Of a stretch of DNA of 61,077 nt, positions 21,281 through 37,771 are shown piece after piece (positions within the stretch are counted from its first letter, which is position 1; each line of letters starts with the position of its first letter). The stretch covers positions 1 to 61,077 of the forward strand of contig CAZHOB010000004.1 in NCBI GenBank assembly GCA_964534465.1. Direction: 5' to 3'. Position numbers and translations under genes: made by a program. The notes below the pieces were generated by a model. It was not told where the DNA came from. It saw only the letters and a list, made by a program, of their open reading frames with translations, and did not search any database. This DNA is from an uncultured Candidatus Saccharibacteria bacterium. Its GTDB lineage: Bacteria; Patescibacteriota; Minisyncoccia; Phycocordibacterales; UBA2100.

Positions 21281-21346
21281 CGTCGCGAAGAGCAAAGGTG
21301 GTACCGAAAGGTGCCACCTTTTTATTGTGGGAGTATAATCCGCACC

Positions 21347-22575: not shown

Positions 22576-23457
22576 ATGAGCGCATTTTCCTTCGCGGGAG
22601 AAGGTAAGAGTTTCTCGGTCCGTTTCAATGCGTGCACGCGCGAACCTCTTCCATGGCGCGAGGAAGTGTACGCCGCCGCACGCGCAATTCATCTGAAAGC
22701 CAAAAAGCCGATATGGGTATGCTCTAGCGGCGGTATCGACAGCGAGGTCGCATGCCGCGCGTTTTATGACCAAGATATCCCGTTCTCGGTCCTTACGCTC
22801 GAACACAGGGAGGGCACGAATGCCCACGATATCAGATTCGCCGTGAAGTGGTGTGAGGAGCGCGGCGTATCCCAAAAAATAGTTCCGATAGACATGGAGA
22901 GGTTCCTTACCGAAGATATCGAGAAATACGCCGAGCGATACATTGCGATCCATCCATTCCGTTATTTTCAGCTCAAGCTTCTTGAGATCGTTGAAGAAAT
23001 GGGAGGCTTTGCCGTCCTTTGCAGCGGTGAGCAGATCTATCACTCCGATATGTCAAAAAAAGTGCTTACGCGCAGCGACATGGTCATCTCCGTATCCAAT
23101 GGCACGGCGATGCCACTTGCATGGTGTACCCAGCACAAAACAGAGCACGAGCCGTATTTTCATTTTGCGACGCCCGAGCTGTGCCTTTCGTATATCCGTC
23201 AGCCCTTGATATCTTTCGCGCTCGATAATCCGGAGTACGTGTTCCGTCATCCCGTGAACACCTATGCGCTCAAGCGCATGGCGTATCTCTCGGCGTGGCC
23301 CGACATGGAGGGACGTTTCAAATATCACGGATATGAACGCCTGAAGGAGGGACTGTTCCAGCATGCGTACGATACGTTGCACAAAAAATTCGCGGACCGG
23401 TTCGTTCGCGTCGATATTCCAGTCGACGAATTCGAGCGACAACTTCTCGGCGCATGA
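22576..23457 (+). CDS. PP-loop ATP pyrophosphatase superfamily protein (adenine nucleotide alpha-hydrolase; subfamily unresolved, PAPS-reductase-like is possible)
   Basis: Intact SGGxDS motif in IWVCSSGGIDSEVACRAF. The stop overlaps the next start (ATGA at 23454-23457). Confidence 0.7.
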   Translation: MSAFSFAGEGKSFSVRFNACTREPLPWREEVYAAARAIHLKAKKPIWVCSSGGIDSEVACRAFYDQDIPFSVLTLEHREGTNAHDIRFAVKWCEERGVSQKIVPIDMERFLTEDIEKYAERYIAIHPFRYFQLKLLEIVEEMGGFAVLCSGEQIYHSDMSKKVLTRSDMVISVSNGTAMPLAWCTQHKTEHEPYFHFATPELCLSYIRQPLISFALDNPEYVFRHPVNTYALKRMAYLSAWPDMEGRFKYHGYERLKEGLFQHAYDTLHKKFADRFVRVDIPVDEFERQLLGA

Positions 23458-24782
23458 TACAAGCGATCCTGGAGAAGAAGTGGTTGCGCGCGGACCGGAT
23501 ATGGACGCATCCGCTGGCATACAAGAGTTTTCTGCGGCTCATTCCGCTTTTTACCGACACGTGGGCACTCGTAAAAAGTCAGTATTGGTCACGCGAAGCA
23601 CTCGAGCGTATGCAGGATGTGCGATTGGGCGACCTCTTCAGGGAGGCGGATCATATTCCTCACTGGCATGAATTGCTGAGCCGTACACAGGGGACTCCGC
23701 GTGAAATACTCTCGCAGCTGCAGATCACGTCGAAGAGCGACCTCAATGAACGAGCTGTAGAGGAAATCGCCTTGACCGCGCTCTTTGCGATCTGTGATAC
23801 CGATCACACCTCGGGTTCTACGGGAAAACCGTTCCATTTTTATCAGGACCGGCATGATTCATTGCGAAGCTTCGCTGTCGTGGAGCGCATATTTCGCACG
23901 ATAACAGGCGGGAAGCGATACCCAATAGTCTACGTGCGCTCCAAGGAACGTTTCGGCTTTACCCCGTACATGCACGAGTGGTTTTATGTGCATGGGTATC
24001 CGCAGATACCATCAAGGATGGAGGACTTCGCGAAGTTGGCCGAGAAATATCCGGATGGATTCATATTGTACGGATATACGACGTGGGTCGTGGAGATCGT
24101 GCGGCAGATGGGGCTTCGAAAAATAGACATGCCGTTGCAGGCGGTGGTCGTGGCCGGAGAGCACCTCGCCGAGGGTGATAAAGAATTCATTGAGCAGGTA
24201 ACAGGCGCTCCGCTTTTCACGCTCTTTGCCTCGCGCGAAGCGGGATACATCGGATTCGAGTGCGAGCATCATGCGATGCATATCAGCGAAGAGTGGTGCC
24301 TCATGGAGGTCGTAGATACAGAGGGCAACGCGCTGCCCTTAGGAGCAGAAGGACGTATCGTCGTTACGACGTTCGATAACCTTGTCATGCCCTTCATACG
24401 ATATGACCTTGGTGATATCGGGAAGATCTCGCCACTACCGTGCACGTGCGGTAGAACACTGCGGACGTTCACCTACAAGGGCCGCATATCTGAGCGCATC
24501 GAACTTGGGGGCGGCAAAGTCGTCAGCCTTTTGGATATCGCATATTCACTCGGTCGGTACCGCGATGCGATCCGCCAGTACCAGATCGTTCAAAAGAGCA
24601 CGAGCGAATTTATTTTCAAAGTGATCCCCGGACCGCTGTTCGAAAAAAACAGAACGAACCTCGAAGAATTCATGCGCTCGCTGCTGGACCAAAGAGTGCA
24701 TATACTCTGGGAGGTGGTCGAACACATACCGGCGGGGAAGAGCGGTAAGGCTGTCTATTTCGTACGCGACCTCAAGCAGTAG
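23454..24782 (+). CDS. PaaK / F390-synthetase-like adenylate-forming ligase, paralogue 3
   Basis: DTDHTSGSTGKPFHFYQD. C-terminal PAGKSGKAVYFVRD. Confidence 0.72.
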   Translation: MIQAILEKKWLRADRIWTHPLAYKSFLRLIPLFTDTWALVKSQYWSREALERMQDVRLGDLFREADHIPHWHELLSRTQGTPREILSQLQITSKSDLNERAVEEIALTALFAICDTDHTSGSTGKPFHFYQDRHDSLRSFAVVERIFRTITGGKRYPIVYVRSKERFGFTPYMHEWFYVHGYPQIPSRMEDFAKLAEKYPDGFILYGYTTWVVEIVRQMGLRKIDMPLQAVVVAGEHLAEGDKEFIEQVTGAPLFTLFASREAGYIGFECEHHAMHISEEWCLMEVVDTEGNALPLGAEGRIVVTTFDNLVMPFIRYDLGDIGKISPLPCTCGRTLRTFTYKGRISERIELGGGKVVSLLDIAYSLGRYRDAIRQYQIVQKSTSEFIFKVIPGPLFEKNRTNLEEFMRSLLDQRVHILWEVVEHIPAGKSGKAVYFVRDLKQ

Positions 24783-26422
24783 ATCTCACCCGCGTTCGTC
24801 GGCACGAAGAGAAGGTCGCTCTTCACGGCGATGGCGTTCACGATGCGTTCGGTGGTTTGAAAAAAACGCTTGAGTTTGCCGGAGCGCGGATCTATTTCAT
24901 GCAGTTTGCCGTCATTGGACCCAAGCCATAGAGAATTATTCCAGAAGACCGGCGATGCAAAGACGCGACCGCCTGTCTCATACGTCCACAGGTCCTTCCA
25001 GTTCGTGCAATCAATGGCGTACAAACATTTGTCGAGGGAGGCGATGAAGAGCGTGTCATTATGCACCAGCGGTATTGAGTATATGCCGCTACCCGTTTCG
25101 CGGGCATGGAGCGGCATGCCGCCCTGTGCGCCGAGAGCATATAAGCGTCCATCCATAGAAGCGAAAACGACGGCGCGACGTTTCGCATCGTAGGCGGCGC
25201 GGGTCTTAATATCGCCGCGCGAAGCGAATTTCCATTGCAATTCACCGCTCTTCGCATCGTAGGCATAGAGCACGCCGTCGTTACTTCCGATCACGACGAG
25301 TCCCTCTTCCTTTATATAGAGAGGGGAGCCATGAGTGAGGGAGGGATGCGAGGCATGCCACGTGAGGTGTCCCGATCTAAGGTCGAGCGCGGCGATGCCA
25401 CCGTGCTTGCGCCATAGTCCATACTCGAGTCCTATATAGATGAGCCCAAGATCCGGCGCGATGTCGGGTGAAGAGCCGACCCAGTCGGCGTCCGCATAAC
25501 TCCAGATCTTCTTTCCTGTTTTCGCCTCGAGCGCGTACACCGTGCCATCGTATGCGCCAAAATATACAAGCTCTCCATGGAGCGCGGGCGAGGAGAGAAT
25601 ACTTTTTCCGGTCGGATGTTTCCCGATCCTGAATTCCCATGCGACTTCGCCGCTCGTAAGAGAGAGCGCGCGGAACGCTCCATCGTCGCAGCCAAAGTAT
25701 ATGCGTTCCTCATCGAGCACCGGCGCAGATTTTTGTACCACCAGATCGTAGAGAGGTGCGGGTGCGCTGTATTTCCACAGCACTTCGAAATCATCCTTGG
25801 GAATTTCCGGTGTATGGGAGCGCTGGAGCGGTAATCCAAAATCGGAAATGGAAAAAAGATGCGTGAGGCGCACGTTTTTTTCCGTTAGAAATGCATACGC
25901 TTCATTCTCGCGGAACGTGAGGATCACAAAAGCGTCGGTAACTTTTTTTCCCGCGGCGTGCAGGATGTCGACCTGCTTGTTGATGCTCTGTCCCGAATTC
26001 ATCAAGTCGTCGACAAAGATGACGGGCTCATCGGTGAGCGTGCCCTCGATCTGTTTCATGAGCCCTGTGCGTTTGCGCGATTTTCGCAGGTAAAAACCAT
26101 TCACCGGAGTGCCACGCTCCTGACCTTTCATCACAATGGCGGCGAGCAGAGCGATGCCGGCCGTCTCCACGCTTCCCACTTGGAATGGATAGTGCTGGTG
26201 GTAGTGCTGCCAAAAGAGCTCAGCGTACCTATTGAGCCACGCGGACTGAAGCATGAGTGCCCTAAAATCAAATATCCACGGGTCGCGGGCGCCTGTCGAT
26301 CCGCCCGCGACGATGTCGACGCCTGCCCGCGCCCTGACCAATACGACGCTTGCAATGGCGCTGCGGAATTCCTGTAAAGGAGCGCTACCGATGGCTCTCG
26401 CCACGTTGGCTTTTGTATTCAT
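24755..26422 (-). CDS. Fusion protein: type-I phosphoribosyltransferase domain plus PQQ-like beta-propeller repeats
   Basis: PRPP-binding loop EPVIFVDDLMNSGQS. At least five propeller blades follow: GAYDGTVYALEAKTGKKIWSY, SNDGVLYAYDAKSGELQWKF, SMDGRLYALG, SLDKCLYAIDCTNWKDLWTY, SNDGKLHEIDPRSGKL. Confidence 0.7.
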   Translation of the reverse strand: MNTKANVARAIGSAPLQEFRSAIASVVLVRARAGVDIVAGGSTGARDPWIFDFRALMLQSAWLNRYAELFWQHYHQHYPFQVGSVETAGIALLAAIVMKGQERGTPVNGFYLRKSRKRTGLMKQIEGTLTDEPVIFVDDLMNSGQSINKQVDILHAAGKKVTDAFVILTFRENEAYAFLTEKNVRLTHLFSISDFGLPLQRSHTPEIPKDDFEVLWKYSAPAPLYDLVVQKSAPVLDEERIYFGCDDGAFRALSLTSGEVAWEFRIGKHPTGKSILSSPALHGELVYFGAYDGTVYALEAKTGKKIWSYADADWVGSSPDIAPDLGLIYIGLEYGLWRKHGGIAALDLRSGHLTWHASHPSLTHGSPLYIKEEGLVVIGSNDGVLYAYDAKSGELQWKFASRGDIKTRAAYDAKRRAVVFASMDGRLYALGAQGGMPLHARETGSGIYSIPLVHNDTLFIASLDKCLYAIDCTNWKDLWTYETGGRVFASPVFWNNSLWLGSNDGKLHEIDPRSGKLKRFFQTTERIVNAIAVKSDLLFVPTNAGEIYCLRSRTK

Positions 26423-26586: not shown

Positions 26587-27978
26587 TCAATAATGATAGA
26601 CATTTTGCGCGGGATAGCCGATGATCGGTGCATTCGGGGGAAGTCGTATCCACTCGTTATGTCTGAACGGCTGATAATCGACGTTGCAGATATCAGGCAC
26701 GTCGACGATCCGATAGAAAGGACCCCCGTTGATCGAATGATCAAACGTCATTGAAATGGTCGGCATCGCGCTGGAGCACGTCTCATGTAGCTGAGCCCAC
26801 CATTCGTACGGGTCGCACCGGTTCCACGCGGTACCCGATTCATAACGGAGCACCTGCTGCGACGTGCCCTTGCCGAGCGTCGTTGTTTTTTGCAGGACGA
26901 GACAATAGAAACTATTGCATTTTGTGCCGGCCAGTTTTTCAAAATCGCCGCTCGCGCTCCTCTCAAAAAGGTACTGCTTGGTAACGGTTGCGATGCATTG
27001 GTGATTGGCCTCGAACATGAACATGCCGAAGCGGTTGCCTTCGAGCGTGAGATATCTGTCGGTCGGTATGATGAATCCGAGCAACTGAAAGAGGAGGATA
27101 AGGGCGATAATGCACCACCCCGCGATGGACTTTTTATCAAATGGCGGCCGCTGGTAGCGATACATCGGCCCGAACAAAATGGCGATCGGCGGAAGCGCTA
27201 TCGACGGATAATCATAGAAGACGAAAATGCCGGAGTAGAGATGGAAATAGAGAGCGAATACAAGAGACATCCGCTGCAAAAGCCAATTACGCGAGAGCAG
27301 GAACCACGCTTCGACTATTTGTACGAAAATAACGATGTTGGTCGAAATGGGAATGAACCAGTCGGGAAAAAGAGGTATGCCGGTCTTCATGGAAGAGAAA
27401 TACGTCCCCTCTATCCATGCGGGAGAAAGCTTGACCGTGACAGACACGAAATAGAGAAGGACAAAAACGAGCTTGAGGAAGTACTCCTTGTGCGGGATAA
27501 AAAGGAGCGTCGCCGTGAGGAAGATGTGATAGTAATCATACGGTCCCGCAATAATATAACTGAGGACAAAAATGACGAAGATCTTCCACACAAGGAGCAA
27601 TGCGAGCAGCATGTGCGCATAGGCCCATTGTTTTTTCCACATGAAATATACGATCAGCATCATGAGACCAAAGAGCAGCATGTAGAACTCCGATTGCGTG
27701 AAGCCGTCGGGAAGCACATGGAAAAAATAGAGATCGCCGCAATTCTTGAAATATGGCCAGCACACCGCCGCGCCGCGCCGCGCCGTTTCCACGGTAATAA
27801 GTGTTTTTCCTATCCATACGGAGAAGGTCACGTAGAAGTAAAAGAGCATTGCCCCGAACATCCACTGCAAAATGACCTGCGACTCGATCTCCTCAATGCT
27901 GAAAAGTTTTCTGTATGCTTCCGTGAACGAACGCCAGTAGTTTTTTATTTTCGTACCGACTTCGGACATCATTTGCAT
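26587..27978 (-). CDS. Polytopic membrane protein (~8-10 TM) with a Cys-containing C-terminal soluble domain (HTTM/SdpB-like?)
   Basis: Hydrophobic repeats run through residues ~30-300, and the C-terminal ~150 aa carry 6 Cys. Overlaps the SagB gene by 10 nt. The family assignment is a guess. Confidence 0.6.
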   Translation of the reverse strand: MQMMSEVGTKIKNYWRSFTEAYRKLFSIEEIESQVILQWMFGAMLFYFYVTFSVWIGKTLITVETARRGAAVCWPYFKNCGDLYFFHVLPDGFTQSEFYMLLFGLMMLIVYFMWKKQWAYAHMLLALLLVWKIFVIFVLSYIIAGPYDYYHIFLTATLLFIPHKEYFLKLVFVLLYFVSVTVKLSPAWIEGTYFSSMKTGIPLFPDWFIPISTNIVIFVQIVEAWFLLSRNWLLQRMSLVFALYFHLYSGIFVFYDYPSIALPPIAILFGPMYRYQRPPFDKKSIAGWCIIALILLFQLLGFIIPTDRYLTLEGNRFGMFMFEANHQCIATVTKQYLFERSASGDFEKLAGTKCNSFYCLVLQKTTTLGKGTSQQVLRYESGTAWNRCDPYEWWAQLHETCSSAMPTISMTFDHSINGGPFYRIVDVPDICNVDYQPFRHNEWIRLPPNAPIIGYPAQNVYHY

Positions 27979-28679
27979 ACCGTTATTGTATGAACAGTCT
28001 GTTCCTGTTCCTCGTTTAAATCAAGGAGTTGCGCAACGAGAGCATCATTGAAGCCCGCGTACGGCCGCACCTTGAGCGAGAGTACGCACCCCACGAGCAA
28101 AATATTCTCGCTCATGTGACCCGCCTCGAGGAGGGCATGCAGGTACGCAAGATCGCCGTATTTGGCCGACGAGCGTTGCCATACGCTCGTGAACACAATA
28201 ATGGATGACAGCGGAAGTTCTTCGGGGTGTTTTGCGATGTCTTTCATGGTGATATCGCGCGGAAGGTCCCAGAGCCGCTCGAGCGCATGCTTACTGGGGT
28301 TGTAGTGGTAGGCCGCCGGCGTCTGACCCTCGATCGCGGTCGATATCAGGTAAGTTTCCACAGGATAGAGAGCTCCACCCGAGGGGTAGTTCCTCCGATG
28401 AGAGTCGGGATGTTTTCGAAGCGAGAGACCGAGAAGTGTACCGAGTTCTTGGAGAAGCAGGGGTGTGTCAGGATTTCCTTCGAGCGCCGAATGCCTTTGC
28501 ACGAGAGCGTCTTGCAATCTGGTCGCGAGTTGCTCGGGCTCTGGAAGAGAGATCTGTCCCATGCGCTTGTATGCTTTGTGTGTTCCCCGTGGCACCTCTT
28601 CAGGTCGATGCGTCGCCCCGCGACGCGTCAGTCGCGCTCTGCGAAGTTCCGCATGTATATGTGAGAGAAAAGGATTCAT
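27969..28679 (-). CDS. SagB-type (nitroreductase-fold, FMN) dehydrogenase
   Basis: Hallmark RNYPSGGALYPVETYL. C-terminal LLEAGHMSENILL ... RPYAGFND. The start overlaps the YcaO stop (ATGA at 28676-28679). Confidence 0.82.
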   Translation of the reverse strand: MNPFLSHIHAELRRARLTRRGATHRPEEVPRGTHKAYKRMGQISLPEPEQLATRLQDALVQRHSALEGNPDTPLLLQELGTLLGLSLRKHPDSHRRNYPSGGALYPVETYLISTAIEGQTPAAYHYNPSKHALERLWDLPRDITMKDIAKHPEELPLSSIIVFTSVWQRSSAKYGDLAYLHALLEAGHMSENILLVGCVLSLKVRPYAGFNDALVAQLLDLNEEQEQTVHTITVCK

Positions 28680-30190
28680 GAGAAAGGATGAGGGGTCGCG
28701 ACGTGCGGTTCCTTGAGGGGCTGATAGCCGAATGCAAGCGGTACTTCTTTGAGCCGTGTGCCGCCAAAGAGACGCAACTGCTCAATTAGATAGGGGGGGT
28801 GGAGCTGCGGTATCACGACCATTTCTATGTGCCACGGCGTTACGTTCTTTTTAGAACCCGAGAGGGATACGGAGATGCAATCGTACGATCTATCCGAGCA
28901 CCATTTCAGGACGCGCTCCAACTGTTGTTCTATGGTATCTCCATCCCACGGTTTCTCTGATACCCCTATTTCTTTTCCCTCCAGTAGTGAGCGCAATTTT
29001 TCGGCATTTTCAGGTTTGCCCCAATAGTATAGTCTGTCGCGATGCCCGATCTCTTCTACGGGCGTGTCATTCCATGAATTTCCCGCATCTTCCCACACAC
29101 GATACCCGCGGCGGGCTCGAAGAGCCTCCGTCAGAGCCTTTTGGACGGCATAGTTAATTGAACGATGTGCTTTGAGACCGATGGTAAAGAGTGGCGCATG
29201 CCCGCTCGTATCTTCAAGGATGACGGCAACTGCATGGGTCGGCGCGTCGGTAATGAGCTGGATCACATGAGGACGAAGTCGATATTGTGTGCACAGTGCT
29301 ACCGCGCGCGCGAGAGCGTCGTCTTCTGTACAGAGGGGGACAAGGGAAATTCGCGGCAGCTTCAATTGATTGAGCCACCAGACCATGTAGGCCTCACGCT
29401 CGATCACTTCGAGGGCGCCGGCAAGGCGCGCACCGGAAAGCGTCGGCCATGTAGCGAGACCGATGGTGGTTTGCTGACGTATCTGCGGCTCGTCGTATCC
29501 GTACTTTTGGTTGAGGCGGACACCGATAGCGGTTTGCGCGGGAATATACACGTCGACGTCGCTCGTGAGTGATCTCCCCTGTATCCATAGATATCGGGCG
29601 TCCTCGCGGAGCGTGCGCTTCGGATTCTGCGCGCGCTGTTCTTCGGAAAAACCGACGAAGTCGCGCGGCGAGATGTATGGACCGTATTTTGCTATTTCAT
29701 TTTCAGTAACACGCTGCGGTCGCATAAAATAATCCTCTTGCGAAAACCATAAGAACCGCTCAACTCCTTCGGCAAGCGTGGCCAAGAGCGCGTCCTCATC
29801 AGAGTGCCATGTGGTGCCGCCTACCTGGTGTTTGGAGGGAACGTTGCACAGCGCATACCAAGATCTGGTCGGCGGCTCATCCTCCATCGATGCCGACCGG
29901 CCATATTGCGTGAGCACGCCCGCTTCCTTGAGGCGTTCGGCAAGCGCGAGAGGGTCCGCAAGGTCGGGCCGCTCAAAAGGCACCGCTCGTGTGTCCCTAT
30001 AAAAATGACCATTTGTTTTCTGCTCGAGCATACCGATGAGCGCACGGAGTGCTCTGTTCTTGATGTCGTCACCCTGCAAAGCATCGTACAAAGGATAGCC
30101 ATCCACGATCATGGTCGCATGATAGCAGCGCAGTTCCGACAGGGTAGTTGTCAAAACTGTCGGGGAAGGTTGTAAAAGTTTTCCCAGCAT
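28676..30190 (-). CDS. YcaO-domain ATP-dependent (cyclo)dehydratase
   Basis: LATLAEGVERFLW, TTIGLATWPTLSGARLAGALEVIEREAYMVWW, IGHRDRLYYW, and the typical Pro-rich C-terminal tail ...HVATPHPFS. Confidence 0.85.
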   Translation of the reverse strand: MLGKLLQPSPTVLTTTLSELRCYHATMIVDGYPLYDALQGDDIKNRALRALIGMLEQKTNGHFYRDTRAVPFERPDLADPLALAERLKEAGVLTQYGRSASMEDEPPTRSWYALCNVPSKHQVGGTTWHSDEDALLATLAEGVERFLWFSQEDYFMRPQRVTENEIAKYGPYISPRDFVGFSEEQRAQNPKRTLREDARYLWIQGRSLTSDVDVYIPAQTAIGVRLNQKYGYDEPQIRQQTTIGLATWPTLSGARLAGALEVIEREAYMVWWLNQLKLPRISLVPLCTEDDALARAVALCTQYRLRPHVIQLITDAPTHAVAVILEDTSGHAPLFTIGLKAHRSINYAVQKALTEALRARRGYRVWEDAGNSWNDTPVEEIGHRDRLYYWGKPENAEKLRSLLEGKEIGVSEKPWDGDTIEQQLERVLKWCSDRSYDCISVSLSGSKKNVTPWHIEMVVIPQLHPPYLIEQLRLFGGTRLKEVPLAFGYQPLKEPHVATPHPFS

Positions 30191-30232: not shown

Positions 30233-30562
30233 ATGTACTCTATGCAGAATAAAAAGAGGGGTTCCGGTATTTGGTCACGGATCGGCGGCACGCTTCTTAT
30301 TGCGCTCGGATTTTTTCTCGTGCTGTTCTCTACTTCGACCCGCACGTTCAAGAATTTCGGCGCACACGATGACGGTAATATCGCGCACGCGGACGCGCCG
30401 GCGGGAAGCGCTGCCGGCTCTACGAGCAGTGGAGGTGATAGCGTGAGCAGCGGTGATTCCGGCGGGGGTCAAGGCAGCTCCGACAGCGGCTCTGACAGCG
30501 GGGGATGTGGAGACAGCGGCGGCGACAGCGGCGGCGGTGATAGTGGAAGCGGCGGCAAATAA
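30233..30562 (+). CDS. Membrane-anchored Gly/Ser/Asp-rich small protein, candidate YcaO substrate
   Basis: Lies 42 nt divergent from ycaO. N-terminal TM helix (IGGTLLIALGFFLVLF). The C-terminus reads GSAAGSTSSGGDSVSSGDSGGGQGSSDSGSDSGGCGDSGGDSGGGDSGSGGK. Confidence 0.55.
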   Translation: MYSMQNKKRGSGIWSRIGGTLLIALGFFLVLFSTSTRTFKNFGAHDDGNIAHADAPAGSAAGSTSSGGDSVSSGDSGGGQGSSDSGSDSGGCGDSGGDSGGGDSGSGGK

Positions 30563-30564: not shown

Positions 30565-31671
30565 ATGCACAGAACAACGATCATATATGGTGCTCTCCTC
30601 GTCATTGCCGCAGCTCTGGCACTCGGTGCGTACCTCATGCACTCGTCGCACGCGAAAAATCTGGCTCCTTACATACCGCGAGAATTGATCAATGCCAAAC
30701 AAAAAGGCGATGTCGACGTTGCCCTCAACGCTTATAAGGCGATCACGAATGATCCGACAAAAAGCGCGGAGACTAAGGCGATGGCGGTCCTCAATATCGT
30801 AGGGGTCAAGCACCTCAAAACAGGCGACATCAGTGACACCATCAACGACATTCGTGCGCTGAAAAAAATTGCAGTTGATCCAGACGTATTTGGGCAAACC
30901 CGTGCATCCGCGATAGCGCTTCTCGCGCTCGCTCACAACAACTCCGGTCGCGACCCGAGGGTCTTCGCAGAGATATACACGGGTGCCCCGTGGGAAAATT
31001 ACCTCGTGCCGAATCGGCCCGATCCATCCGCACTTAAATTAAGTGTCTGGGCATATAGCGTGAGCCCGATATCAATGGCGGCGATATATGCTGCGCAGCT
31101 GGCATCTTTGCAGGCTATCAATAGCTCCTCAACAAGCGCCGATAGAACAAAATACGGCGATATGGCGGTCGAATACCTGCAAAAGGCTGACGACGCAGCT
31201 TTGCAGGAAGGAAGGAATGACCCCTCTTACACGACATCCGATCGATATTTGACCTACCGCGTGTGGCGAGCTATCACTATCGGCCGTCTCGCCCTCTTGC
31301 AACGCGGCACGTACCCCTCTGTCTTCGACAAGGAGTACTCTGAATTTTTCAGCTTTGTTAAGGCGCTTCCGCAAAACGGGCATTCGCAAGACGAAAATCT
31401 CTATGCACGTTTGCAGTACGCAAGTATTTTGCGTCGACTCAGCTCTTTTGGGAAAGAAAAGCTCGCACTGGATGATTTTGCAAAGGAGATAGAGGCGACT
31501 GACAACAAGAATCTCGGATTTTTTTCCTACATTTACAACATATCGAAATTCCCCAAGAGCTTTTTCTGGGTGCCGATAGCACAAATGCGAAAGCTCTCGC
31601 CCGCCTTTAATAAGGCGACCAATCCATATATCAATCTACAGCCATCGACCACCATCCCTGTCCAACAATAG
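30565..31671 (+). CDS. Membrane-anchored hypothetical protein (368 aa)
   Basis: The ATG lies 2 nt after the previous stop. N-terminal TM helix IIYGALLVIAAALALGAYL. The rest looks helical. Confidence 0.6.
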   Translation: MHRTTIIYGALLVIAAALALGAYLMHSSHAKNLAPYIPRELINAKQKGDVDVALNAYKAITNDPTKSAETKAMAVLNIVGVKHLKTGDISDTINDIRALKKIAVDPDVFGQTRASAIALLALAHNNSGRDPRVFAEIYTGAPWENYLVPNRPDPSALKLSVWAYSVSPISMAAIYAAQLASLQAINSSSTSADRTKYGDMAVEYLQKADDAALQEGRNDPSYTTSDRYLTYRVWRAITIGRLALLQRGTYPSVFDKEYSEFFSFVKALPQNGHSQDENLYARLQYASILRRLSSFGKEKLALDDFAKEIEATDNKNLGFFSYIYNISKFPKSFFWVPIAQMRKLSPAFNKATNPYINLQPSTTIPVQQ

Positions 31672-31694
31672 TCGCAAGGTTCTATACTGTGATC

Positions 31695-32474
31695 ATGAAT
31701 GCTGCGCGATGGGCTATCATAAGTGCTCTTGTTCTCGCCGCGCTCCTGTTCTTGTCCCGCGAACAGCTCCGCGAGGACTATGAAATGGCATCGCTTGCGC
31801 TCGCAAAGAGTCCGCAGCGCGCATTTGATCTCGGGGAAGAACATTTCAATGACGATCATCCGGAGCTCTACAATATCGACCTCGCAGAATATTTTTTTTG
31901 GAAGGCGCAAGCGCTCGGGTCGGACGATCCGTATCTCTATCACGAGATCGCACGTATTTCCTTCTTGCGCGGCAAGTACGAACGTGCGCTTACACAGATA
32001 GATCTTCAGATATTGAAGCACGGGGACAGCACTCCCAATTCGTATTATGTACGCGCCCTCATCGAAGGATTCAAAGGGGATTATGCGGCAGCAGCAAAAG
32101 ATTACGGACACTTTCTGAAGTTCGATCCGCACGATTGGGCCGCGATCAACGACTACGCATGGGTGCTCTTGAAGGCCAATAAACCGCGCGAAGCCGCGAA
32201 GATCACAGGCGATGCTCTCGTAGAATTTCCGGACAATGCGTGGCTTCTGAATTCCAATGCCATCGCGCTGTATGAGATAGGGGAGCTTGCGAAGGCAAAG
32301 CTCATCGTGCAGCGGGCATTTGAGGCAACGCAAAAATTGACCTCGTATGACTGGACACATGCGTATCCGGGCAACGACCCGCGCATAGCGCAAGAGGGCC
32401 TCGCCGCCTTCAAGGACGCCGCTGCGAAGAACATGCGCACCATCACGGAGGCCACAAGTACTCCGCAGCATTAA
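31695..32474 (+). CDS. Membrane-anchored TPR-repeat protein
   Basis: TM helix, then TPR-like A/Y/L periodicity (YFFWKAQALGSDDPYLYHEIARISFLRGKYERA, DYGHFLKFDPHDWAAINDYAWVLLKANKPREA). TATACT lies 6 nt upstream of the ATG; a GTG at 31689 is an alternative start. Confidence 0.65.
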   Translation: MNAARWAIISALVLAALLFLSREQLREDYEMASLALAKSPQRAFDLGEEHFNDDHPELYNIDLAEYFFWKAQALGSDDPYLYHEIARISFLRGKYERALTQIDLQILKHGDSTPNSYYVRALIEGFKGDYAAAAKDYGHFLKFDPHDWAAINDYAWVLLKANKPREAAKITGDALVEFPDNAWLLNSNAIALYEIGELAKAKLIVQRAFEATQKLTSYDWTHAYPGNDPRIAQEGLAAFKDAAAKNMRTITEATSTPQH

Positions 32475-32534
32475 GACATATTCACAGTGTGCGTCCGCTC
32501 GAGTGTTATTGCACGATACAATGAAATGCACTGT

Positions 32535-35500
32535 ATGGGTCTGCGCAAAAGAAGCCGCGGAATTTTTGGCGCTGTTTCGTGGAAAATACGCGCGCTCCTC
32601 TTTCTTGCTCTCATTGCCATTGGCTTATCGCTTCATGACACGAGGGCGGGATTCCATTCTTCTGAGCTAAGGTTCACTGACGCGTCGCACGGCGGTCTCG
32701 CTATCGTACCCGCATCGTGTCCCTCGCTTCCGCACTGGGCGGGAGATTGCACTTCCTCGGCAACAGCCGCGGAGGGAACGAACACCTCCGGCTTGGCCTA
32801 TGCAAGCGCGCCCGGCGCTGTCGGTGCGCCGCCCGCCCCGACCTACACGATCACCGGTGTCGGTGGCGTCATCGGCGCAGGCGGTACGTGTCAGGTCGGG
32901 AGTTCCAATACCATCGCAGCCATTTCCGCCTCCTCCGCGTCCACGCAGGGACTACTCGGCAATTACTTTTCCGGGTCCGGTTTTACGCCGTGGTATTCGG
33001 TGTACGTCGACCCACAAGTCAACTTCAATCCCTCGTGGCCGCTTGCAACGAGAGCGAATGTCACCGGGAATGCCTACTCGGCGATATGGAGTGGTTACGT
33101 CAAGGTCGACTATACGGGTACCTACACGTTCTATGTGACCAACTCCAGTGGCGCGCGGTTGGACGTGAACGACGTAAGGATAATCGACGACCTCTCGCCT
33201 GGTCATGCAGCGGTCGAAGATTCCGGGCGCATCGATCTCGTCGCGGGGAAGTGGTACAAGATAGTTCTGCTCTATAACAACAGCGCTATCAATAGTTCGG
33301 GCGCGATAACACTCAGCTATAGTGGCGGCGTCGTTCGCACCGTCTACCTCACCTCCGGTACGAGCTGGACCGTGCCGAGTGATTGGAGTAATGCCCACAG
33401 CTCCATCGAAGTGATAGGCGGTGGTGGTGGTGGTGCATACGGTCTCTATCGTGCGAGCGGCGGAGCGGGTGGTTATTCCGCGTCGTACGCAGACCAGTAC
33501 GCGATCTCTGGTTCTGGAGTGCCTCCACTCTCACCGGGTCAGGTCATTAATTATTCCGTCGGCTCCGCAGGTGCCGGCGGCACCTCCACCAATGTCTTGG
33601 GAGGCGACGGCGGCGATACATGGTTTGATTCCACTAGCATTCTTTTGGCCAAAGGAGGAACGGCCCCAACCAATGCCTATGGTCTAGGTGTCCAATGGAA
33701 TGGCGGCACAGGAGGTCAGGTATATCCCTATGGGGGAGTGGGGCAAGTTCAGTACGCCGGTGGCAGTGGAGGCACGTATTGTTGCGGGACTCCCACCTCG
33801 GGCTTCGGTGGCGGTGGAGCTGGCGGCCCCGGGGGCAACGGTAAAAGCGCACCCGCAGACTTCAGTGGCGGACATGCCGAGAACATTGCCGTTTCCGGTG
33901 GTGCCGGTGGCGCAGCGGGTACGAGCGCCGCCCCAAATGGTGGAGCTGGCGGCAATGGCATTGATTGGGGCTCGACACACGGTTCTGGCGGAGGCGGTGG
34001 CAGCGGGTATGGAGACGGCTCCACGTTGGGTGGTAACGGAGGCAACGCCGGTAGTTATGGCGGTGCCGGCGGTGGCGGCGGGTATGGAGGAAGCAGTCAC
34101 ATTGGCTTGGGCGGTGCCGGTGCACAGGGTCTCATCGTTATTACGTACCCTATTCCAGGACAGTCGATGGCCAAGCAGCTCATTCCTGCCGATCACTTGA
34201 GCCTCACGGGCGGGGAGCCGGTGTATTATATCGTCGATTGGGGCGACGGTTCGCCCATACAAGCAATCCCGACACCGGGCGCTGCGGTCGCAGGAGATGT
34301 TTTCTCGCAAACGACTTTCAAACAGACAACAAACCTTTTGTCAGGATGGCAGGGGCGTACCTACGATGATTCCTCTTGGACAAGGTCTTTTGGCCAGGAA
34401 GGGGACTGCGGCGTTACATTTGGATGTACCAACGGATTTGCGGGCACCAACGTTTTCTGGATATGGTCGTCCAATACCTTGCTAACCCCAGATACCACCA
34501 ATAATCCTTATTTCCGAAAGGGCTTCATCCCTGCCTCCTCGAGCGGCACGCTCACGATACGTTCAGCCGGAAACTACACAGCGTACGTCAACGGCACATT
34601 GGTCGGGTCTGCGACGGGCCCTGCCGGTCCGAATTCTAATGCATATCCTGTTACTCTTTTGCCGGGTACGGTCAACGTGCTGGCCGTGAACGCTACCCAC
34701 GCGGGGACCGGAGTAGACGGCTGGATAGGCAAACTCTCTACGATGTTCAATTCACCGGTCTTTGTAATGCCTGATACGACCGCGACTTCGACCCACACCT
34801 ATGCGACTGCCGGTTCCAAAATAGTGCGCGTGGCCACGGTTGGCCGATCTTCGCTCCAATCCGCATGGCAGTCGTTCTCAATGACGTGCAGCGCACCTGC
34901 GACGCCGCAGCCCAATCCTCCGTCATCCATAACTATCGGTGGCGCAAGCTCGTGTACTTCGGGCACCTCCACCACCATTAGTTTGAGCGCGAGTACTGAA
35001 ACGGGACTGGGCGGACTCTTCTACAGCGGCACGGCGTTCAATACATATAAGAGCCGCTCGCTCGATGCCACGATCAATTTCCCCGATGCCACAAATATCG
35101 GCACGGTGCGCACCGGCGCCTCGACCGGCTGGTCGGCCAAGTGGTTTGGATATGTGAAAGCAGACGTAACCGGTGTGTACACGTTCTACGTATCCTCCGA
35201 CGACGGCGCACGGCTCTACGTCAACGGCAACACGGTAGTAAATAGCTGGATAGACCAAGCGTACACCGAGCACTCGGGTACCATTTCACTCACGGCAGGC
35301 AATTGGTACCCGATAGAGCTCGACTACTACCAAAATATCAGCACATCGGGCATCGCGCTCAGCTACAGCGCCTCGGGCGTCACGAAGCAAATAATTCCGG
35401 CGACCAATTTGCGCGCCTCGGGCGTATCGTACGCGGTCAACTGGGGCGATGGCACCGCGGTGCAGACCGTGCCAGCTTCCGGCTTCACTAATCCGATGAT

Positions 35501-36911
35501 CGCGTACAACGTCTCGCACACGTACGCCGCAGCTGGCACATCCACCATCTCCGTGACGGCCACCAATCAGACCAACCAGACATCCACGGCGACCACGAAG
35601 CAGATGGTGTGCTCGACAGCCACGTGCGCCAACGGTCTCAATATCAATACGTATCCGAGTTGCACATGTCCTGCAGCGCAAACGCAAAGCGGCAGCACCT
35701 GCGGCTGCGCCAACGGCCTCAATGCCACCACGTATCCGACATGCGCTTGTCCCGCCGGCCAGACCCAAAGCGGCAGCTCGTGCATCACTCCCGTCACGGT
35801 GCAGCCGAATGCGCCCACGGTGACTCTCGGTGGCGGCGCTTCGTGCACACAGGGCTCACCGGTCAGTGTCGACATGCGCGCCTCGAGCGATGCGGGATTG
35901 GCGGGTGATTTCTACACCGGCACCGCGTACAACACATTTAAGGGCCGCGCACTCGATGCCATCATCAACTTCACGGACGCGACCGCCATCGGTACCAACC
36001 GCACCGGCGCTTCGACCGTGTGGTCTGCGAAATGGTACGGCTATGTGCGCGCTGATTTCAATGAGACGTACACATTCCAAACGGTGAGCGACGACGGCGT
36101 ACGCTTGACCGTCAACGGCGTCCAGATCATCAACAATTGGACGGATCACGCCGCGACCACGAATTCAGGCACCATCGCGCTTACCGCCGGCAACTGGTAT
36201 CCGGTGCAGCTCGAGTTCTACCAAAACACCGCCACCTCGGAGATCACGCTCAGCAACGGCTCGCCGAGTCTCCCGATGCAGATAATTCCTTCGGGCAATT
36301 TGAAGGCTTCGGGCGTGTATTACTCCATCAATTGGGGCGATGGCACGGTGCAGACATATCCGACTTCCGGATTCATTTTCCCGAGCGCTACGACGACGGT
36401 CGCACACACGTATGCTTCTGCCGGCAACCAGACCGTCTCGGTGACGGCGACAAATCAGAGCGCGCAGACGGGAGCCGCCACAGCCAAGGTGCTCACGTGC
36501 GCCGCCTCCTGTACGCCCGCATATTACTGCTCGGGAAGCCAGCTCATGCATACCGACGCCAGCTGCGGGAATACATTGGTCCAGAACTGCACATATGGCT
36601 GCGGAAATGGCGCGTGCAATCCGGCTCCTACTCCCTCCATCGTCTCCTTCAACGTGACGCCGTACCTCGTAACGCAGGGTAATACCGCGACCGTGCAGTG
36701 GTCGACCACCAACACGACTTCATGCACCGTCTCATCGCCCAACGGTGATTCGTGGTCAGGTACTTCGGGCTCCGCGACCACGCGCGCCATCACTGGCCAG
36801 ACCTCGTACACCATCACCTGCAACGGCCTCGACGGCTCCGTCATCACACAAACCATTCAGGTGAATGTCGTGCCGACCTTCTGCGAAGTGGGCGTGCAGA
36901 ACTGTCCGTAA
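32535..36911 (+). CDS. Giant secreted/surface protein with 3 PA14-like modules, a Gly-rich block, a galactose-binding-like beta-sandwich, Cys-rich mini-repeats and a C-terminal Ig-like domain
   Basis: Signal anchor MGLRKRSRGIFGAVSWKIRALLFLALIAIGLSL. PA14-type blocks read GLLGNYFSG...YTGTYTFYVTNSSGARLDVND, GLGGLFYSG...VTGVYTFYVSSDDGARLYVNGN and GLAGDFYTG...ETYTFQTVSDDGVRLTVNG. GGxGG tracts span ~33415-34130. Confidence 0.8.
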   Translation: MGLRKRSRGIFGAVSWKIRALLFLALIAIGLSLHDTRAGFHSSELRFTDASHGGLAIVPASCPSLPHWAGDCTSSATAAEGTNTSGLAYASAPGAVGAPPAPTYTITGVGGVIGAGGTCQVGSSNTIAAISASSASTQGLLGNYFSGSGFTPWYSVYVDPQVNFNPSWPLATRANVTGNAYSAIWSGYVKVDYTGTYTFYVTNSSGARLDVNDVRIIDDLSPGHAAVEDSGRIDLVAGKWYKIVLLYNNSAINSSGAITLSYSGGVVRTVYLTSGTSWTVPSDWSNAHSSIEVIGGGGGGAYGLYRASGGAGGYSASYADQYAISGSGVPPLSPGQVINYSVGSAGAGGTSTNVLGGDGGDTWFDSTSILLAKGGTAPTNAYGLGVQWNGGTGGQVYPYGGVGQVQYAGGSGGTYCCGTPTSGFGGGGAGGPGGNGKSAPADFSGGHAENIAVSGGAGGAAGTSAAPNGGAGGNGIDWGSTHGSGGGGGSGYGDGSTLGGNGGNAGSYGGAGGGGGYGGSSHIGLGGAGAQGLIVITYPIPGQSMAKQLIPADHLSLTGGEPVYYIVDWGDGSPIQAIPTPGAAVAGDVFSQTTFKQTTNLLSGWQGRTYDDSSWTRSFGQEGDCGVTFGCTNGFAGTNVFWIWSSNTLLTPDTTNNPYFRKGFIPASSSGTLTIRSAGNYTAYVNGTLVGSATGPAGPNSNAYPVTLLPGTVNVLAVNATHAGTGVDGWIGKLSTMFNSPVFVMPDTTATSTHTYATAGSKIVRVATVGRSSLQSAWQSFSMTCSAPATPQPNPPSSITIGGASSCTSGTSTTISLSASTETGLGGLFYSGTAFNTYKSRSLDATINFPDATNIGTVRTGASTGWSAKWFGYVKADVTGVYTFYVSSDDGARLYVNGNTVVNSWIDQAYTEHSGTISLTAGNWYPIELDYYQNISTSGIALSYSASGVTKQIIPATNLRASGVSYAVNWGDGTAVQTVPASGFTNPMIAYNVSHTYAAAGTSTISVTATNQTNQTSTATTKQMVCSTATCANGLNINTYPSCTCPAAQTQSGSTCGCANGLNATTYPTCACPAGQTQSGSSCITPVTVQPNAPTVTLGGGASCTQGSPVSVDMRASSDAGLAGDFYTGTAYNTFKGRALDAIINFTDATAIGTNRTGASTVWSAKWYGYVRADFNETYTFQTVSDDGVRLTVNGVQIINNWTDHAATTNSGTIALTAGNWYPVQLEFYQNTATSEITLSNGSPSLPMQIIPSGNLKASGVYYSINWGDGTVQTYPTSGFIFPSATTTVAHTYASAGNQTVSVTATNQSAQTGAATAKVLTCAASCTPAYYCSGSQLMHTDASCGNTLVQNCTYGCGNGACNPAPTPSIVSFNVTPYLVTQGNTATVQWSTTNTTSCTVSSPNGDSWSGTSGSATTRAITGQTSYTITCNGLDGSVITQTIQVNVVPTFCEVGVQNCP

Positions 36912-37765: not shown

Positions 37766-37771
37766 ATTTCC

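What the first reader, a model, noticed from the sequence alone, without database searches (positions are those of the whole stretch)
27969..30190. YcaO + SagB dehydrogenase pair without a recognisable E1-like/Ocin-ThiF or TfuA partner
The YcaO (504 aa) shows the ERxxW and EVIEREAxxxWW blocks and the Pro-rich C-terminal tail PHPFS. It is translationally coupled to a SagB-type dehydrogenase (YPSGGALYPVETY).

Azol(in)e-forming systems normally also need an E1-like/RRE partner, either fused or adjacent. Thioamide-forming systems normally carry TfuA. Neither is evident in this window.

The next genes are instead a polytopic membrane protein and a PRTase-propeller fusion, while ATP-grasp-unrelated ligases and PP-loop proteins lie nearby. 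Substrate recognition could be provided by a novel partner.
Basis: partly seen in the sequence, partly recalled or inferred. Interest (0 to 1): 0.75.

Follow-up and report, generated by a model that had tools for sequence, protein, structure and literature searches.

The report
Partner-less azole-peptide synthetase of Paceibacteria
This is a two-enzyme (YcaO plus SagB) module for putting azole rings into a small, apparently exported, Gly/Ser/Cys/Asp-rich peptide encoded next door; it is conserved across many Parcubacteria and has no leader-binding E1/RRE partner nearby, so it offers a test case for how such enzymes find their substrate without one.

Summary
A YcaO gene (28676-30190, minus strand; the true start is probably 30112) overlaps a SagB-type dehydrogenase gene (27969-28679) by ATGA.

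No E1-like, Ocin-ThiF, TfuA or PqqD/RRE domain was detected in:
- the YcaO N-terminus, by HMM and by AF2/Foldseek;
- any other window ORF I scanned between rpsJ and rplC, by HMM;
- the recurrent gene families of 31 related genome loci, by HMM.

A divergent 109-aa ORF (30233-30562) has a basic N-terminus, a TM-like helix, an 'AHADAP' motif and a Gly/Ser/Asp(Cys)-rich tail. The same small gene faces the YcaO gene in 29 of 33 related genome loci.

The PRTase-propeller fusion and the polytopic membrane protein are frequent neighbours, but both also occur without YcaO.

The small protein is always followed by a membrane-anchored TPR-like solenoid (p368). That pair also exists without YcaO/SagB.

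Most likely this is a stand-alone D+B azole synthetase acting on a Sec-signal-like precursor. It sits in a conserved island between rpsJ and rplC of Paceibacteria.

YcaO-nitroreductase 'LAP' clusters in CPR genomes were already reported by an antiSMASH survey (Sharrar 2020). I therefore call it a new variant of a known kind.

The parts
28676..30190 (-). YcaO cyclodehydratase (D protein). The probable true start is ATG at 30112, giving 478 aa.
   Evidence: Pfam PF02624 E 2e-41; TIGR03604 161 bits. The AF2 model has pLDDT 93. Foldseek top hits are LynD, MusD and TruD, with 469 of 478 columns aligned. The ExxER, ExxER and C-terminal P-H-P residues are invariant in 42 homologues.
27969..28679 (-). 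SagB-type FMN dehydrogenase (B protein), translationally coupled to YcaO by an ATGA overlap.
   Evidence: TIGR03605 107 bits, above cutoff 78. The family profile hits McbC at E 6e-24. The invariant K173-Y174 aligns to the catalytic K201-Y202 of McbC (PMC6395948).
30233..30562 (+). Candidate precursor peptide (109 aa). It has a basic n-region, a TM-like helix (LLIALGFFLVLF), a spacer, IAHADAP, and a 55-aa Gly/Ser/Asp core with 1 Cys, 17 Ser and a single Lys at the C-terminus.
   Evidence: Translation. The same architecture faces the YcaO gene in 29 of 33 genome loci, and a further 17 of 45 YcaO-containing metagenome loci carry the small gene nearby. The motif search gave one hit in the 61-kb window.
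30565..31671 (+). p368: membrane-anchored all-alpha TPR-like solenoid. It starts 2 nt after the precursor stop.
   Evidence: No Pfam or NCBIfam hit. The AF2 model has pLDDT 92.6 and shows a TM helix plus 18 helices. Only weak TPR-type Foldseek hits. The family has 140 representative clusters. It always lies directly downstream of the small protein.
31689..32474 (+). TPR protein with an N-terminal membrane anchor, predicted N-in with the TPR domain outside.
   Evidence: Pfam TPR_19 and related families. Present in 22 of 32 loci. Flanking-charge count.
32487..36911 (+). 1474-aa membrane-anchored surface protein (3 x PA14, PKD, Gly-rich). Its N- and C-terminal Cys modules are shared with the smaller homologue in L001.
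   Evidence: Pfam. The family is present in 18 of 32 loci. Shared end motifs seen.
26587..27978 (-). 463-aa polytopic membrane protein of unknown family. Its start overlaps the SagB stop. It is an accessory neighbour, not specific to YcaO.
   Evidence: No Pfam hit even at E<=1. 587+ homologues, none carrying a Pfam domain or a name other than 'hypothetical protein' among the 120 listed. Present in 13 of 32 loci.
24755..26422 (-). Orotate-PRTase-like domain (~44-195) fused to an 8-bladed PQQ/BamB-like beta-propeller. A frequent but non-obligate neighbour.
   Evidence: TIGR00336 E 6.5e-16; PF13570 E 7e-53. PDB hits are OPRT and propellers, with no E1 among the 60 best shown of 340. Present in 25 of 32 loci. 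In the reverse test, 33 of 47 loci carry YcaO.

Best explanation
**What it is.** The YcaO/SagB pair is the modification core of a linear azole-containing-peptide (TOMM/LAP-type) system. The system is specific to Paceibacteria (Parcubacteria, CPR) and works without an E1-like/RRE partner.

**Proposed mechanism**
1. The substrate is the divergently encoded 109-aa protein (30233-30562).
2. In the cytoplasm the YcaO uses ATP to cyclodehydrate Cys/Ser residues of its Gly/Ser/Asp(Cys)-rich C-terminal tail to azolines.
3. The SagB FMN dehydrogenase (Lys-Tyr pair) oxidises the azolines to azoles.
4. The substrate's N-terminal basic-plus-hydrophobic segment acts as a Sec-type signal or anchor. The acidic modified tail is placed outside the cell and may be released at the conserved A-H-A|D site.
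5. Outside, the co-transcribed membrane-anchored TPR-like proteins and large surface proteins act with it.

**How the substrate is recognised.** Recognition is by the YcaO (or the YcaO-SagB complex) itself, as in stand-alone YcaOs. The PRTase-propeller and the membrane protein are neighbours in the same genomic island rather than required partners.

**Shown here:** enzyme identities, catalytic motifs, the fold of the YcaO N-terminus, absence of E1/RRE/TfuA in cis, and conservation and architecture of the small protein and its operon.

**Inferred:** that the small protein is the substrate, azole chemistry, partner independence, and export and cleavage.
For: **Enzymes**
- YcaO and SagB HMM hits.
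- Closest solved relatives are the azoline-forming cyanobactin heterocyclases MusD, TruD and LynD (E 3e-12 to 1e-10). They score above the thioamide-forming archaeal YcaOs and above McbD.
- Foldseek aligns 469 of 478 columns to LynD, E 1.7e-21.
- C-terminal P474-H475-P476 are invariant, as expected for azoline-forming YcaOs whose C-terminus enters the active site (PMC6395948).
- SagB K173-Y174 aligns to catalytic K201-Y202 of McbC.

**No partner**
- No ThiF, TfuA or PqqD hit in any scanned ORF of the island.
- The YcaO N-terminal 100 aa gives no PqqD/RRE hit at E<=10 in Pfam or PDB.
- No such family recurs among accessory genes of 31 loci.

**Substrate**
- The small ORF faces YcaO in 29 of 33 genome loci. 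The leader alignment is conserved (GFF helix, [VI]AHAD[AV]P). Cores are 25-97 aa, with 0-22 Cys and almost no Lys/Arg.
- YcaO-linked tails carry more Cys+Ser+Thr than tails of YcaO-less loci: 0.34 versus 0.16, Mann-Whitney p~0.002.

**Export**
- K/R is enriched on the N-flank of the helix, 96 versus 48; 25 members against 1.
- DsbA-like and rhodanese genes sit in the same operon in 7-10 loci.
- Bufferins are a precedent for Sec-signal RiPP precursors (PMC11626156).

**Precedent for partner-less YcaOs:** bottromycin (PMC7136475, PMC4603692).
Against: - No biochemical data exist, and the product is unknown.
- The window's own core has only one Cys, so the proposal relies on Ser-to-oxazole chemistry.
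- The small protein plus p368 also occur where no YcaO/SagB lies within 8 kb (L097, L115, L079, L100, L107). The small protein therefore has a function that does not need azoles. It is assigned as substrate by adjacency and composition only.
- The A-H-A|D site lies 10-23 residues after the hydrophobic helix. That is further than a usual signal-peptidase c-region.
- A peptide co-translationally targeted to Sec might escape a cytoplasmic enzyme.
- An E1-like partner encoded elsewhere in the genome cannot be excluded. Only the 61-kb contig and +/-10 kb flanks were visible.
- TIGR03604 scores below its trusted cutoff.
Confidence: 0.55

Rival explanations
1. A novel partner replaces the E1/RRE protein. 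The cytoplasmic PRTase-beta-propeller fusion encoded after SagB binds the precursor, or activates the YcaO, in place of the C protein.
For: It lies directly downstream of YcaO-SagB in most loci, 25 of 32. It is cytoplasmic by sequence (no signal peptide). Beta-propellers are common protein- and peptide-binding modules. It is well conserved, with a mean column identity of 55%.
Against: In the reverse search, 14 of 47 loci with enough upstream sequence have the fusion and no YcaO/SagB, often next to PaaK-like ligases instead. Seven of 32 YcaO loci lack it within 10 kb. Its PRPP-binding loop is intact (VDDLMNSG; OPRT hit), which suggests an enzymatic role of its own.
Confidence: 0.13
2. A canonical E1-like/Ocin-ThiF partner with an RRE exists but is encoded elsewhere in the genome.
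For: Only one 61-kb contig and +/-10 kb flanks of related loci could be inspected. Azoline-forming YcaOs with a Pro-rich C-terminus normally depend on such a partner (PMC7136475).
Against: In known TOMM clusters the C/F gene is fused or adjacent. Here it is absent next to the YcaO in every one of 31 genome loci and ~33 metagenome loci from many Paceibacteria lineages. A trans-encoded partner in all of them would be unprecedented.
Confidence: 0.1
3. The membrane-anchored TPR-like solenoid p368, co-transcribed with the precursor, is the peptide-binding scaffold that presents the substrate to YcaO/SagB at the membrane. LapB is a precedent for an N-terminal membrane helix followed by a TPR domain; that the LapB TPR domain is cytoplasmic is from my own knowledge.
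For: It follows the precursor gene in all 30 cases examined. The AF2 model is a TPR-like superhelix resembling peptide-binding TPRs (KLC1, PEX5, NprR, LapB). Its topology is ambiguous by K/R counts, 56 versus 59.
Against: It stays with the small protein in loci that have no YcaO/SagB, so it serves the small protein rather than the YcaO. Net flank charge favours N-in with the solenoid outside. The neighbouring TPR and surface proteins are predicted to be extracytoplasmic.
Confidence: 0.08
4. YcaO/SagB do not modify the small protein. Either they act on another target, such as a ribosomal protein given the position between rpsJ and rplC, or the YcaO performs a non-azoline reaction.
For: E. coli YcaO has been linked to ribosomal protein modification (PMC7550191). 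The small protein also exists without YcaO. The window core has one Cys.
Against: A SagB dehydrogenase with an intact Lys-Tyr pair is always coupled to the YcaO (29 of 32 loci; the others are truncated), which points to azoline-to-azole chemistry. No TfuA is present. The rpsJ-rplC gap also holds many unrelated envelope genes. Tail Cys/Ser/Thr content tracks YcaO presence.
Confidence: 0.1

Closest known systems
Microcin B17 synthetase McbBCD and other LAP/TOMM systems (streptolysin S, phazolicin, klebsazolicin)
   Same: A YcaO cyclodehydratase plus a SagB/McbC FMN dehydrogenase with the Lys-Tyr pair. The adjacent precursor has a core rich in Gly, Ser and Cys.
   Different: There is no McbB-type E1-like/RRE subunit. 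The leader contains a TM-like helix with a Sec-signal-like charge pattern. The conserved core has no dedicated ABC exporter or immunity gene. The locus sits at a fixed position inside the ribosomal-protein gene array. McbD is only a marginal sequence match (E 0.05).
Cyanobactin heterocyclases LynD / TruD / PatD / MusD
   Same: They are the best sequence and fold match for the whole 478-aa protein. This includes the ~95 N-terminal residues that lie outside the SagD HMM.
   Different: Those enzymes carry ~310 extra N-terminal residues (an RRE domain plus an E1-like domain) that bind the leader. Both are missing here. No PatA/PatG protease domain appeared in any HMM scan of the island ORFs.
Stand-alone YcaOs of bottromycin biosynthesis (BotC, BotCD)
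   Same: They act without any E1/ThiF/TfuA partner (PMC7136475, PMC4603692).
   Different: My recollection, not checked here, is that bottromycin clusters have no SagB dehydrogenase and use a follower peptide. Sequence relatedness to BotC/BotCD was not tested.
CPR 'LAP' clusters reported by Sharrar et al. 2020 (PMC7298704)
   Same: An antiSMASH survey found 110 YcaO clusters in 93 CPR genomes, 51 of them Parcubacteria. In 89 clusters a nitroreductase gene lies next to the YcaO. This locus is almost certainly of that kind.
   Different: As far as I read it, that paper did not address the missing C protein, the precursor family with its hydrophobic leader, the p368/TPR operon, or the rpsJ-rplC location.
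Bufferins (MNIO-modified periplasmic RiPPs, PMC11626156)
   Same: The precursor carries a Sec signal, Cys is converted to a heterocycle in the cytoplasm, and the product is exported by the general pathway. Recognition does not need the signal peptide.
   Different: The enzyme family is different (MNIO plus a DUF2063-family partner protein), as are the heterocycle (5-thiooxazole) and the folded core.

Membership tests
TOMM/LAP azole synthetase (BCD type) | YcaO domain with ATP/Mg-binding acidic motifs | tested here: met
   PF02624 E 2e-41. E115, E118, R119, E235 and E238 are invariant in 42 homologues. The fold matches LynD.
TOMM/LAP azole synthetase (BCD type) | Pro-rich C-terminal tail of the D protein | tested here: met
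   The C-terminus is ...TPHPFS. P474, H475 and P476 are invariant or nearly invariant.
TOMM/LAP azole synthetase (BCD type) | Score above the curated cutoff of the SagD-family model TIGR03604 | tested here: not met
   161 bits against a cutoff of 219.25.
TOMM/LAP azole synthetase (BCD type) | SagB/McbC FMN dehydrogenase with a catalytic Lys-Tyr pair | tested here: met
   TIGR03605 107 bits, above 78.4. K173-Y174 aligns to McbC K201-Y202.
TOMM/LAP azole synthetase (BCD type) | E1-like (C) or Ocin-ThiF-like (F) partner with an RRE, fused or adjacent | tested here: not met
   No hit in any scanned ORF of the island or in recurrent families of 31 loci. The N-terminus is not an RRE.
TOMM/LAP azole synthetase (BCD type) | Adjacent precursor with a Cys/Ser/Thr-rich core | tested here: met
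   The 109-aa ORF at 30233-30562. The family faces YcaO in 29 of 33 genome loci. Its role as substrate is inferred, not shown.
TfuA-dependent thioamide-forming YcaO | Adjacent TfuA gene | tested here: not met
   No TfuA hit in the window or in recurrent neighbour families. TIGR03266 scores only 39.9 bits against a cutoff of 365.
Cyanobactin heterocyclase (PatD/LynD) | N-terminal RRE plus E1-like domains fused to the YcaO domain | tested here: not met
   The protein is 478 aa. Query residue 92 aligns to LynD residue 401, and 469 columns align to the C-terminal YcaO domain.
Stand-alone YcaO (bottromycin type) | No partner protein is required for activity | not testable with these tools
   Absence in cis is shown. 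Independence needs biochemistry. Relatedness to BotC/BotCD was not tested.
Sec-exported RiPP precursor (bufferin-like logic) | N-terminal signal peptide with a positive n-region, a hydrophobic h-region and an AXA cleavage site | tested here: inconclusive
   The n-region is positive and the h-region has Kyte-Doolittle hydropathy (19-residue average) of ~2.0-2.8. AHA|D is conserved but lies 10-23 residues after the helix. No SignalP was available.

The most novel reading that the evidence does not exclude
Paceibacteria carry a vertically inherited, housekeeping-like azole-peptide system inside their ribosomal-protein gene array. A minimal two-enzyme synthetase (YcaO+SagB) has no RRE and no E1-like scaffold. 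It recognises a precursor whose leader doubles as a Sec signal or membrane anchor. The acidic, azole-decorated tail is displayed or released at the cell surface. There it works with dedicated TPR-like proteins and PA14/PKD surface proteins, for example in cation binding or host attachment of these episymbionts, rather than as an antibiotic.
Probability: 0.3. Interest if true: 0.75.

Novelty: new variant of a known kind. Interest (0 to 1): 0.55.

Why it matters
Azoline-forming YcaOs are thought to need an E1-like or ThiF-like partner carrying an RRE to bind the leader. [quoted passage not shown]

This locus belongs to a large, conserved family: at least 155 clusters at 90% identity. It has a clear D+B pair, an easily recognised precursor family, and no partner in cis. 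RRE-independent substrate recognition could therefore be tested directly with three genes.

Three features suggest a physiological envelope function in the little-understood CPR bacteria, not only a bacteriocin:
- the Sec-signal-like leader;
- the fixed position between rpsJ and rplC;
- the link to membrane-anchored TPR proteins and surface proteins.

Tried and rejected
**Leads that were tested and rejected**
- RRE in the YcaO N-terminus: rejected. The AF2 model aligns end to end with the LynD YcaO domain. The profile of the first 100 aa gives no PqqD or PDB hit at E<=10.
- RRE in SagB: rejected. Alignment to McbC and BmdC starts at residues ~50-70, and the remaining N-terminus is too short.
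- A discrete small RRE gene: rejected for the core cluster, where there is no free coding space. The small ORFs in the two larger gaps (11.8-12.5 kb and 20.9-21.3 kb) look like secreted Cys-containing peptides with signal peptides.
- PRTase-propeller as an obligate partner: weakened by the reverse search.
- p368 as an E1 substitute: its fold is TPR-like, not E1 or RRE, and it stays with the small protein without YcaO.

**Searches that gave nothing or were limited**
- The search for homologous proteins on p368 returned only itself.
The exhaustive representative search solved this.
- The Pfam scan of 84 non-family neighbour ORFs shows only the top 25 families. It excludes recurrent ThiF/TfuA/PqqD genes but not singletons.
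- Rfam and the promoter/terminator scans found nothing useful.
- The Chemical Reviews YcaO review (PMC5406272) is not held.

Full report
**Observation**

YcaO is 28676..30190(-), 504 aa. The SagB-like gene is 27969..28679(-), 236 aa. The YcaO stop and the SagB start share ATGA. The SagB stop overlaps the start of a 463-aa membrane protein by 10 nt.

Pfam YcaO matches residues 130-463 (E 2e-41). NCBIfam places the protein nearest the TOMM SagD family, TIGR03604, at 161 bits, which is below the curated cutoff of 219. That is far above the thioamide-type methan_mark_1 model at 40 bits. The SagB model TIGR03605 is passed, 107 bits against 78.

One correction. About 120 homologues are ~480 aa long and start at the equivalent of Met27 (MIVDG...). 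The gene therefore probably starts at 30112, and the stretch before the SagD-model match is ~100 aa.

**Is there a hidden E1-like/RRE or TfuA partner?**

No ThiF/E1, Ocin-ThiF, TfuA or PqqD family matched any of the window ORFs I scanned between rpsJ (S10, 11349-11756) and the rplC-type L3 ORF (37742-38380, assigned by synteny with L003). These are the large ORFs; the E-value limit was 0.01, and up to 1.

The YcaO was modelled from 42 homologues (pLDDT 93).
- Foldseek against the PDB gives LynD, MusD and TruD as top hits. E is 1.7e-21 and 469 of 478 columns align. Archaeal YcaOs, E. coli YcaO and McbD follow. No RRE or E1 entry appears at significant E; everything after the YcaO entries has E>0.01.
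- The sequence profile aligns query 92-331 to LynD 401-640. Residue 1 therefore corresponds to about LynD 310, which is the start of the LynD YcaO domain (domain boundary from my own knowledge).
- A profile of the first 100 residues finds nothing in the PDB. None of 18 members hits PqqD in Pfam, even at E<=10.

The N-terminus is therefore part of a LynD-type YcaO domain and is not an RRE.

The SagB N-terminus is too short for an RRE, and the region aligns to McbC and BmdC from residues ~50-70. The core cluster is tightly packed, with gaps of 164 bp or less, so there is no room for a discrete RRE gene.

**The family and its neighbourhood**

The YcaO has at least 155 relatives (clusters at 90% identity) at 40-58% identity. 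All hits that carry a source name are called Parcubacteria, Paceibacterota, Kaiserbacteria, Pacebacteria or Minisyncoccota. I fetched 33 genome loci and clustered their ORFs together with the window's.

| Family | Loci out of 32 |
|---|---|
| YcaO | 32 |
| SagB | 29 (the rest are truncated contigs) |
| p368 (~370 aa, unknown) | 27; 30 when counted by position |
| PRTase-propeller | 25 |
| TPR | 22 |
| Large surface protein | 18 |
| 463-aa membrane protein | 13 |
| PaaK-like ligases / PP-loop-like | 5-6 |

Other recurrent accessory families are a membrane-anchored rhodanese, a DsbA-like thioredoxin, a small membrane protein and a PP-loop-like protein. None is E1-like. Among 84 further non-family ORFs within 6 kb of the YcaO, no ThiF, TfuA or PqqD family recurs. 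Singletons cannot be excluded, because only 25 families are listed.

The module lies between rpsJ and rplC wherever the flanks reach them. In the window this island is 26 kb.

A 109-aa ORF (30233-30562) is transcribed divergently from the YcaO. Its sequence is MYSMQNKKRGSGIWSRIGGTLLIALGFFLVLFSTSTRTFKNFGAHDDGNIAHADAPAGSAAGSTSSGGDSVSSGDSGGGQGSSDSGSDSGGCGDSGGDSGGGDSGSGGK.

The same kind of gene faces the YcaO in 29 of 33 genome loci. Of the 45 YcaO-containing metagenome loci, 17 also carry the small gene nearby.

The leaders align well.
- There is a short basic n-region.
- A hydrophobic helix follows, with a conserved GF(F/L) motif and Kyte-Doolittle hydropathy (19-residue average) of ~2.0-2.8.
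- Then come 10-23 residues and [VI]-A-H-A-D-[AV]-P.

The tails are 25-97 aa and rich in Gly, Ser, Cys and Asp. They carry 0-22 Cys and almost no Lys/Arg. That composition recalls the microcin B17 core. The motif search gave one hit in the whole 61-kb window, and hits only at this position in the loci, apart from a second paralogous module. Chance is therefore not an issue.

Flanking charges predict N-in with the tail outside: K/R 96 versus 48, and 25 members against 1. A-H-A|D fits the AXA rule of signal peptidase I but is unusually far from the helix.

Bufferins are a precedent for RiPP precursors that carry Sec signals and are modified before export. There the signal peptide is dispensable for modification (PMC11626156).

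**The genes next to the pair**

*p368 (30565-31671).* It starts 2 nt after the precursor stop and follows the small gene in every case examined. The family is small, with 140 representative clusters in 1.8 billion proteins. The AF2 model (pLDDT 92.6) is one TM helix plus an all-alpha TPR-like solenoid. It has only weak matches, to peptide-binding TPR proteins. It is neither E1 nor RRE.

*PRTase-propeller.* It has an orotate-PRTase-like domain with an intact PRPP loop, and a PQQ/BamB-like propeller. I searched metagenome contigs with it as a reverse test. Of 47 loci with at least 3.5 kb upstream, 33 have the YcaO and 14 do not. The latter often have PaaK-like ligases instead.

*463-aa membrane protein.* Its family has 587+ hits. 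None of the 120 listed carries a Pfam domain or a name other than 'hypothetical protein'. It is much more widespread than the YcaO.

These two are best seen as residents of the same island rather than YcaO partners.

**Loci without YcaO**

Several loci (L097, L115, L079, L100, L107) keep the small protein, p368 and, in L115, the TPR, surface protein and L3. They have no YcaO/SagB within 8 kb. Their tails are Asp/Gly-rich with only 1-2 Cys. In L115 the tail is essentially poly-Asp.

The Cys+Ser+Thr fraction is 0.34 in 49 YcaO-linked tails and 0.16 in 6 YcaO-less tails (Mann-Whitney p~0.002). The sequences are not independent, so this is indicative only.

This cuts two ways. It supports the link between YcaO and heterocyclisable residues. 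It also shows that the small protein/p368 operon is older than, and functional without, the azole module.

**Mechanism proposed**

YcaO and SagB form a minimal D+B azole synthetase. The SagB Lys-Tyr pair aligns to McbC K201-Y202 (PMC6395948). The invariant PHP at the YcaO C-terminus is consistent with this role.

The synthetase would convert Cys/Ser of the tail to thiazoles and oxazoles in the cytoplasm without an RRE. The hydrophobic leader then takes the acidic product across or into the membrane. There the co-transcribed TPR-like proteins, sometimes DsbA and rhodanese, and the PA14/PKD surface proteins act with it.

| Step | Basis |
|---|---|
| Enzyme identity | shown |
| Absence of a partner in cis | shown |
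| Substrate identity | inferred |
| Azole chemistry | inferred |
| Partner independence | inferred |
| Export and cleavage | inferred |

My confidence in this overall picture is about 0.55. Confidence that no E1/RRE/TfuA is encoded in cis is about 0.9.

**Comparison with what is known**

Partner classes for YcaOs are E1-like, ThiF-like and TfuA, with 'stand-alone' YcaOs in bottromycin (PMC7136475). [quoted passage not shown]

Sharrar et al. (PMC7298704) had already reported 110 antiSMASH 'LAP' clusters in 93 CPR genomes, 51 of them Parcubacteria. In 89 of the clusters a nitroreductase lies next to the YcaO. The pair as such is therefore not new.

What appears new:
- the explicit absence of a C/F partner across the family;
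- the precursor family with a Sec-signal-like leader;
- the p368/TPR/surface-protein operon;
- the fixed rpsJ-rplC location.

I classify it as a new variant of a known kind, with interest 0.55.

Noticed in passing
window 11349-38380: The S10 gene (11349-11756) and the L3-type ORF (37742-38380) are co-oriented but separated by a 26-kb island of envelope and modification genes. Related Paceibacteria loci have the same insertion site, with islands of roughly 14 kb or more and variable content (L003, L001).
   Followed up: partly
window 14522-16189 (-): A bifunctional ATP sulfurylase/APS kinase (PAPS synthesis; NF004040 700 bits) lies inside the island. In L001 the orthologue is followed by a sulfotransferase, which suggests sulfation of some product of the island.
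   Followed up: no
window 18295-19581 (-), 19583-20926 (-), 23454-24782 (+); 22576-23457 (+), 12512-13426 (+): There are three paralogous PaaK/F390-synthetase-like adenylate-forming ligases and two paralogous proteins without HMM hits; 22576-23457 carries an SGGIDS (PP-loop type) motif. In metagenome loci the ligases accompany the PRTase-propeller even where YcaO is absent, so they may form a separate module.
   Followed up: partly
window 13420-14517 (-), 16196-17278 (-), 21311-22528 (+): Three paralogous Cys-rich proteins of 360-405 aa (repeated CxHGxGH-like motifs; at least the latter two start with a hydrophobic N-terminal segment) have no family assignment. The family is present in 10 of 32 related loci.
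   Followed up: no
window 32487-36911 (+): The 1474-aa surface protein has three PA14 domains, PKD domains and a long Gly-rich region. Its N-terminal 'IVPASCPSxPHxAGxC' and C-terminal Cys-rich modules are conserved in the much shorter homologue (504 aa) in L001. The middle of the protein is therefore swappable.
   Followed up: no
window 40229-42691: A 200-aa ORF (-) and a 605-aa ABC-transporter fusion (+, PF00005) lie after the L2-type ORF (39338-40180), ahead of what look by length and synteny like the rpsS-rplV-rpsC genes. In L003 that gap holds only a 128-aa ORF. The ribosomal gene identities downstream were not verified by HMM.
   Followed up: no
window 11871-12107 (+), 12265-12468 (+), 21044-21280 (+): Three small ORFs (67-78 aa) have classical signal peptides (…AYA|) and a few Cys. 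They sit in the only sizeable intergenic gaps of the island and may be secreted peptides.
   Followed up: no
L001/L005 1265-13568: One genome carries two complete modules in tandem (precursor, p368, TPR / YcaO, SagB). The precursors have diverged, and the two YcaOs are 58% and 53% identical to the window's.
   Followed up: partly
L115 4896-9707; L097; L079; L100; L107: These loci keep the small protein, p368, TPR, surface protein and PRTase-propeller but have no YcaO/SagB within 8 kb. Their tails are Asp/Gly-rich (poly-Asp in L115) with 1-2 Cys.
   Followed up: partly
L084 7107-13707 (and the near-identical L085-L095): This is a variant architecture. An 840-aa ORF carries ~290 extra N-terminal residues, which look formyltransferase-like by eye (not checked by HMM), ahead of the PRTase-propeller. 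Rhodanese, DsbA-like and small membrane genes follow. SagB then precedes a 514-aa YcaO on the opposite strand. No precursor or p368 was detected in range.
   Followed up: no
window 26587-27978 (-): The polytopic membrane protein has a C-terminal Cys-containing soluble part. It belongs to a large family (587+ hits, up to 69% identity) with no Pfam domain or functional name among the 120 hits listed; all source-named hits are Parcubacteria-group MAGs. It is better conserved than the YcaO itself.
   Followed up: partly
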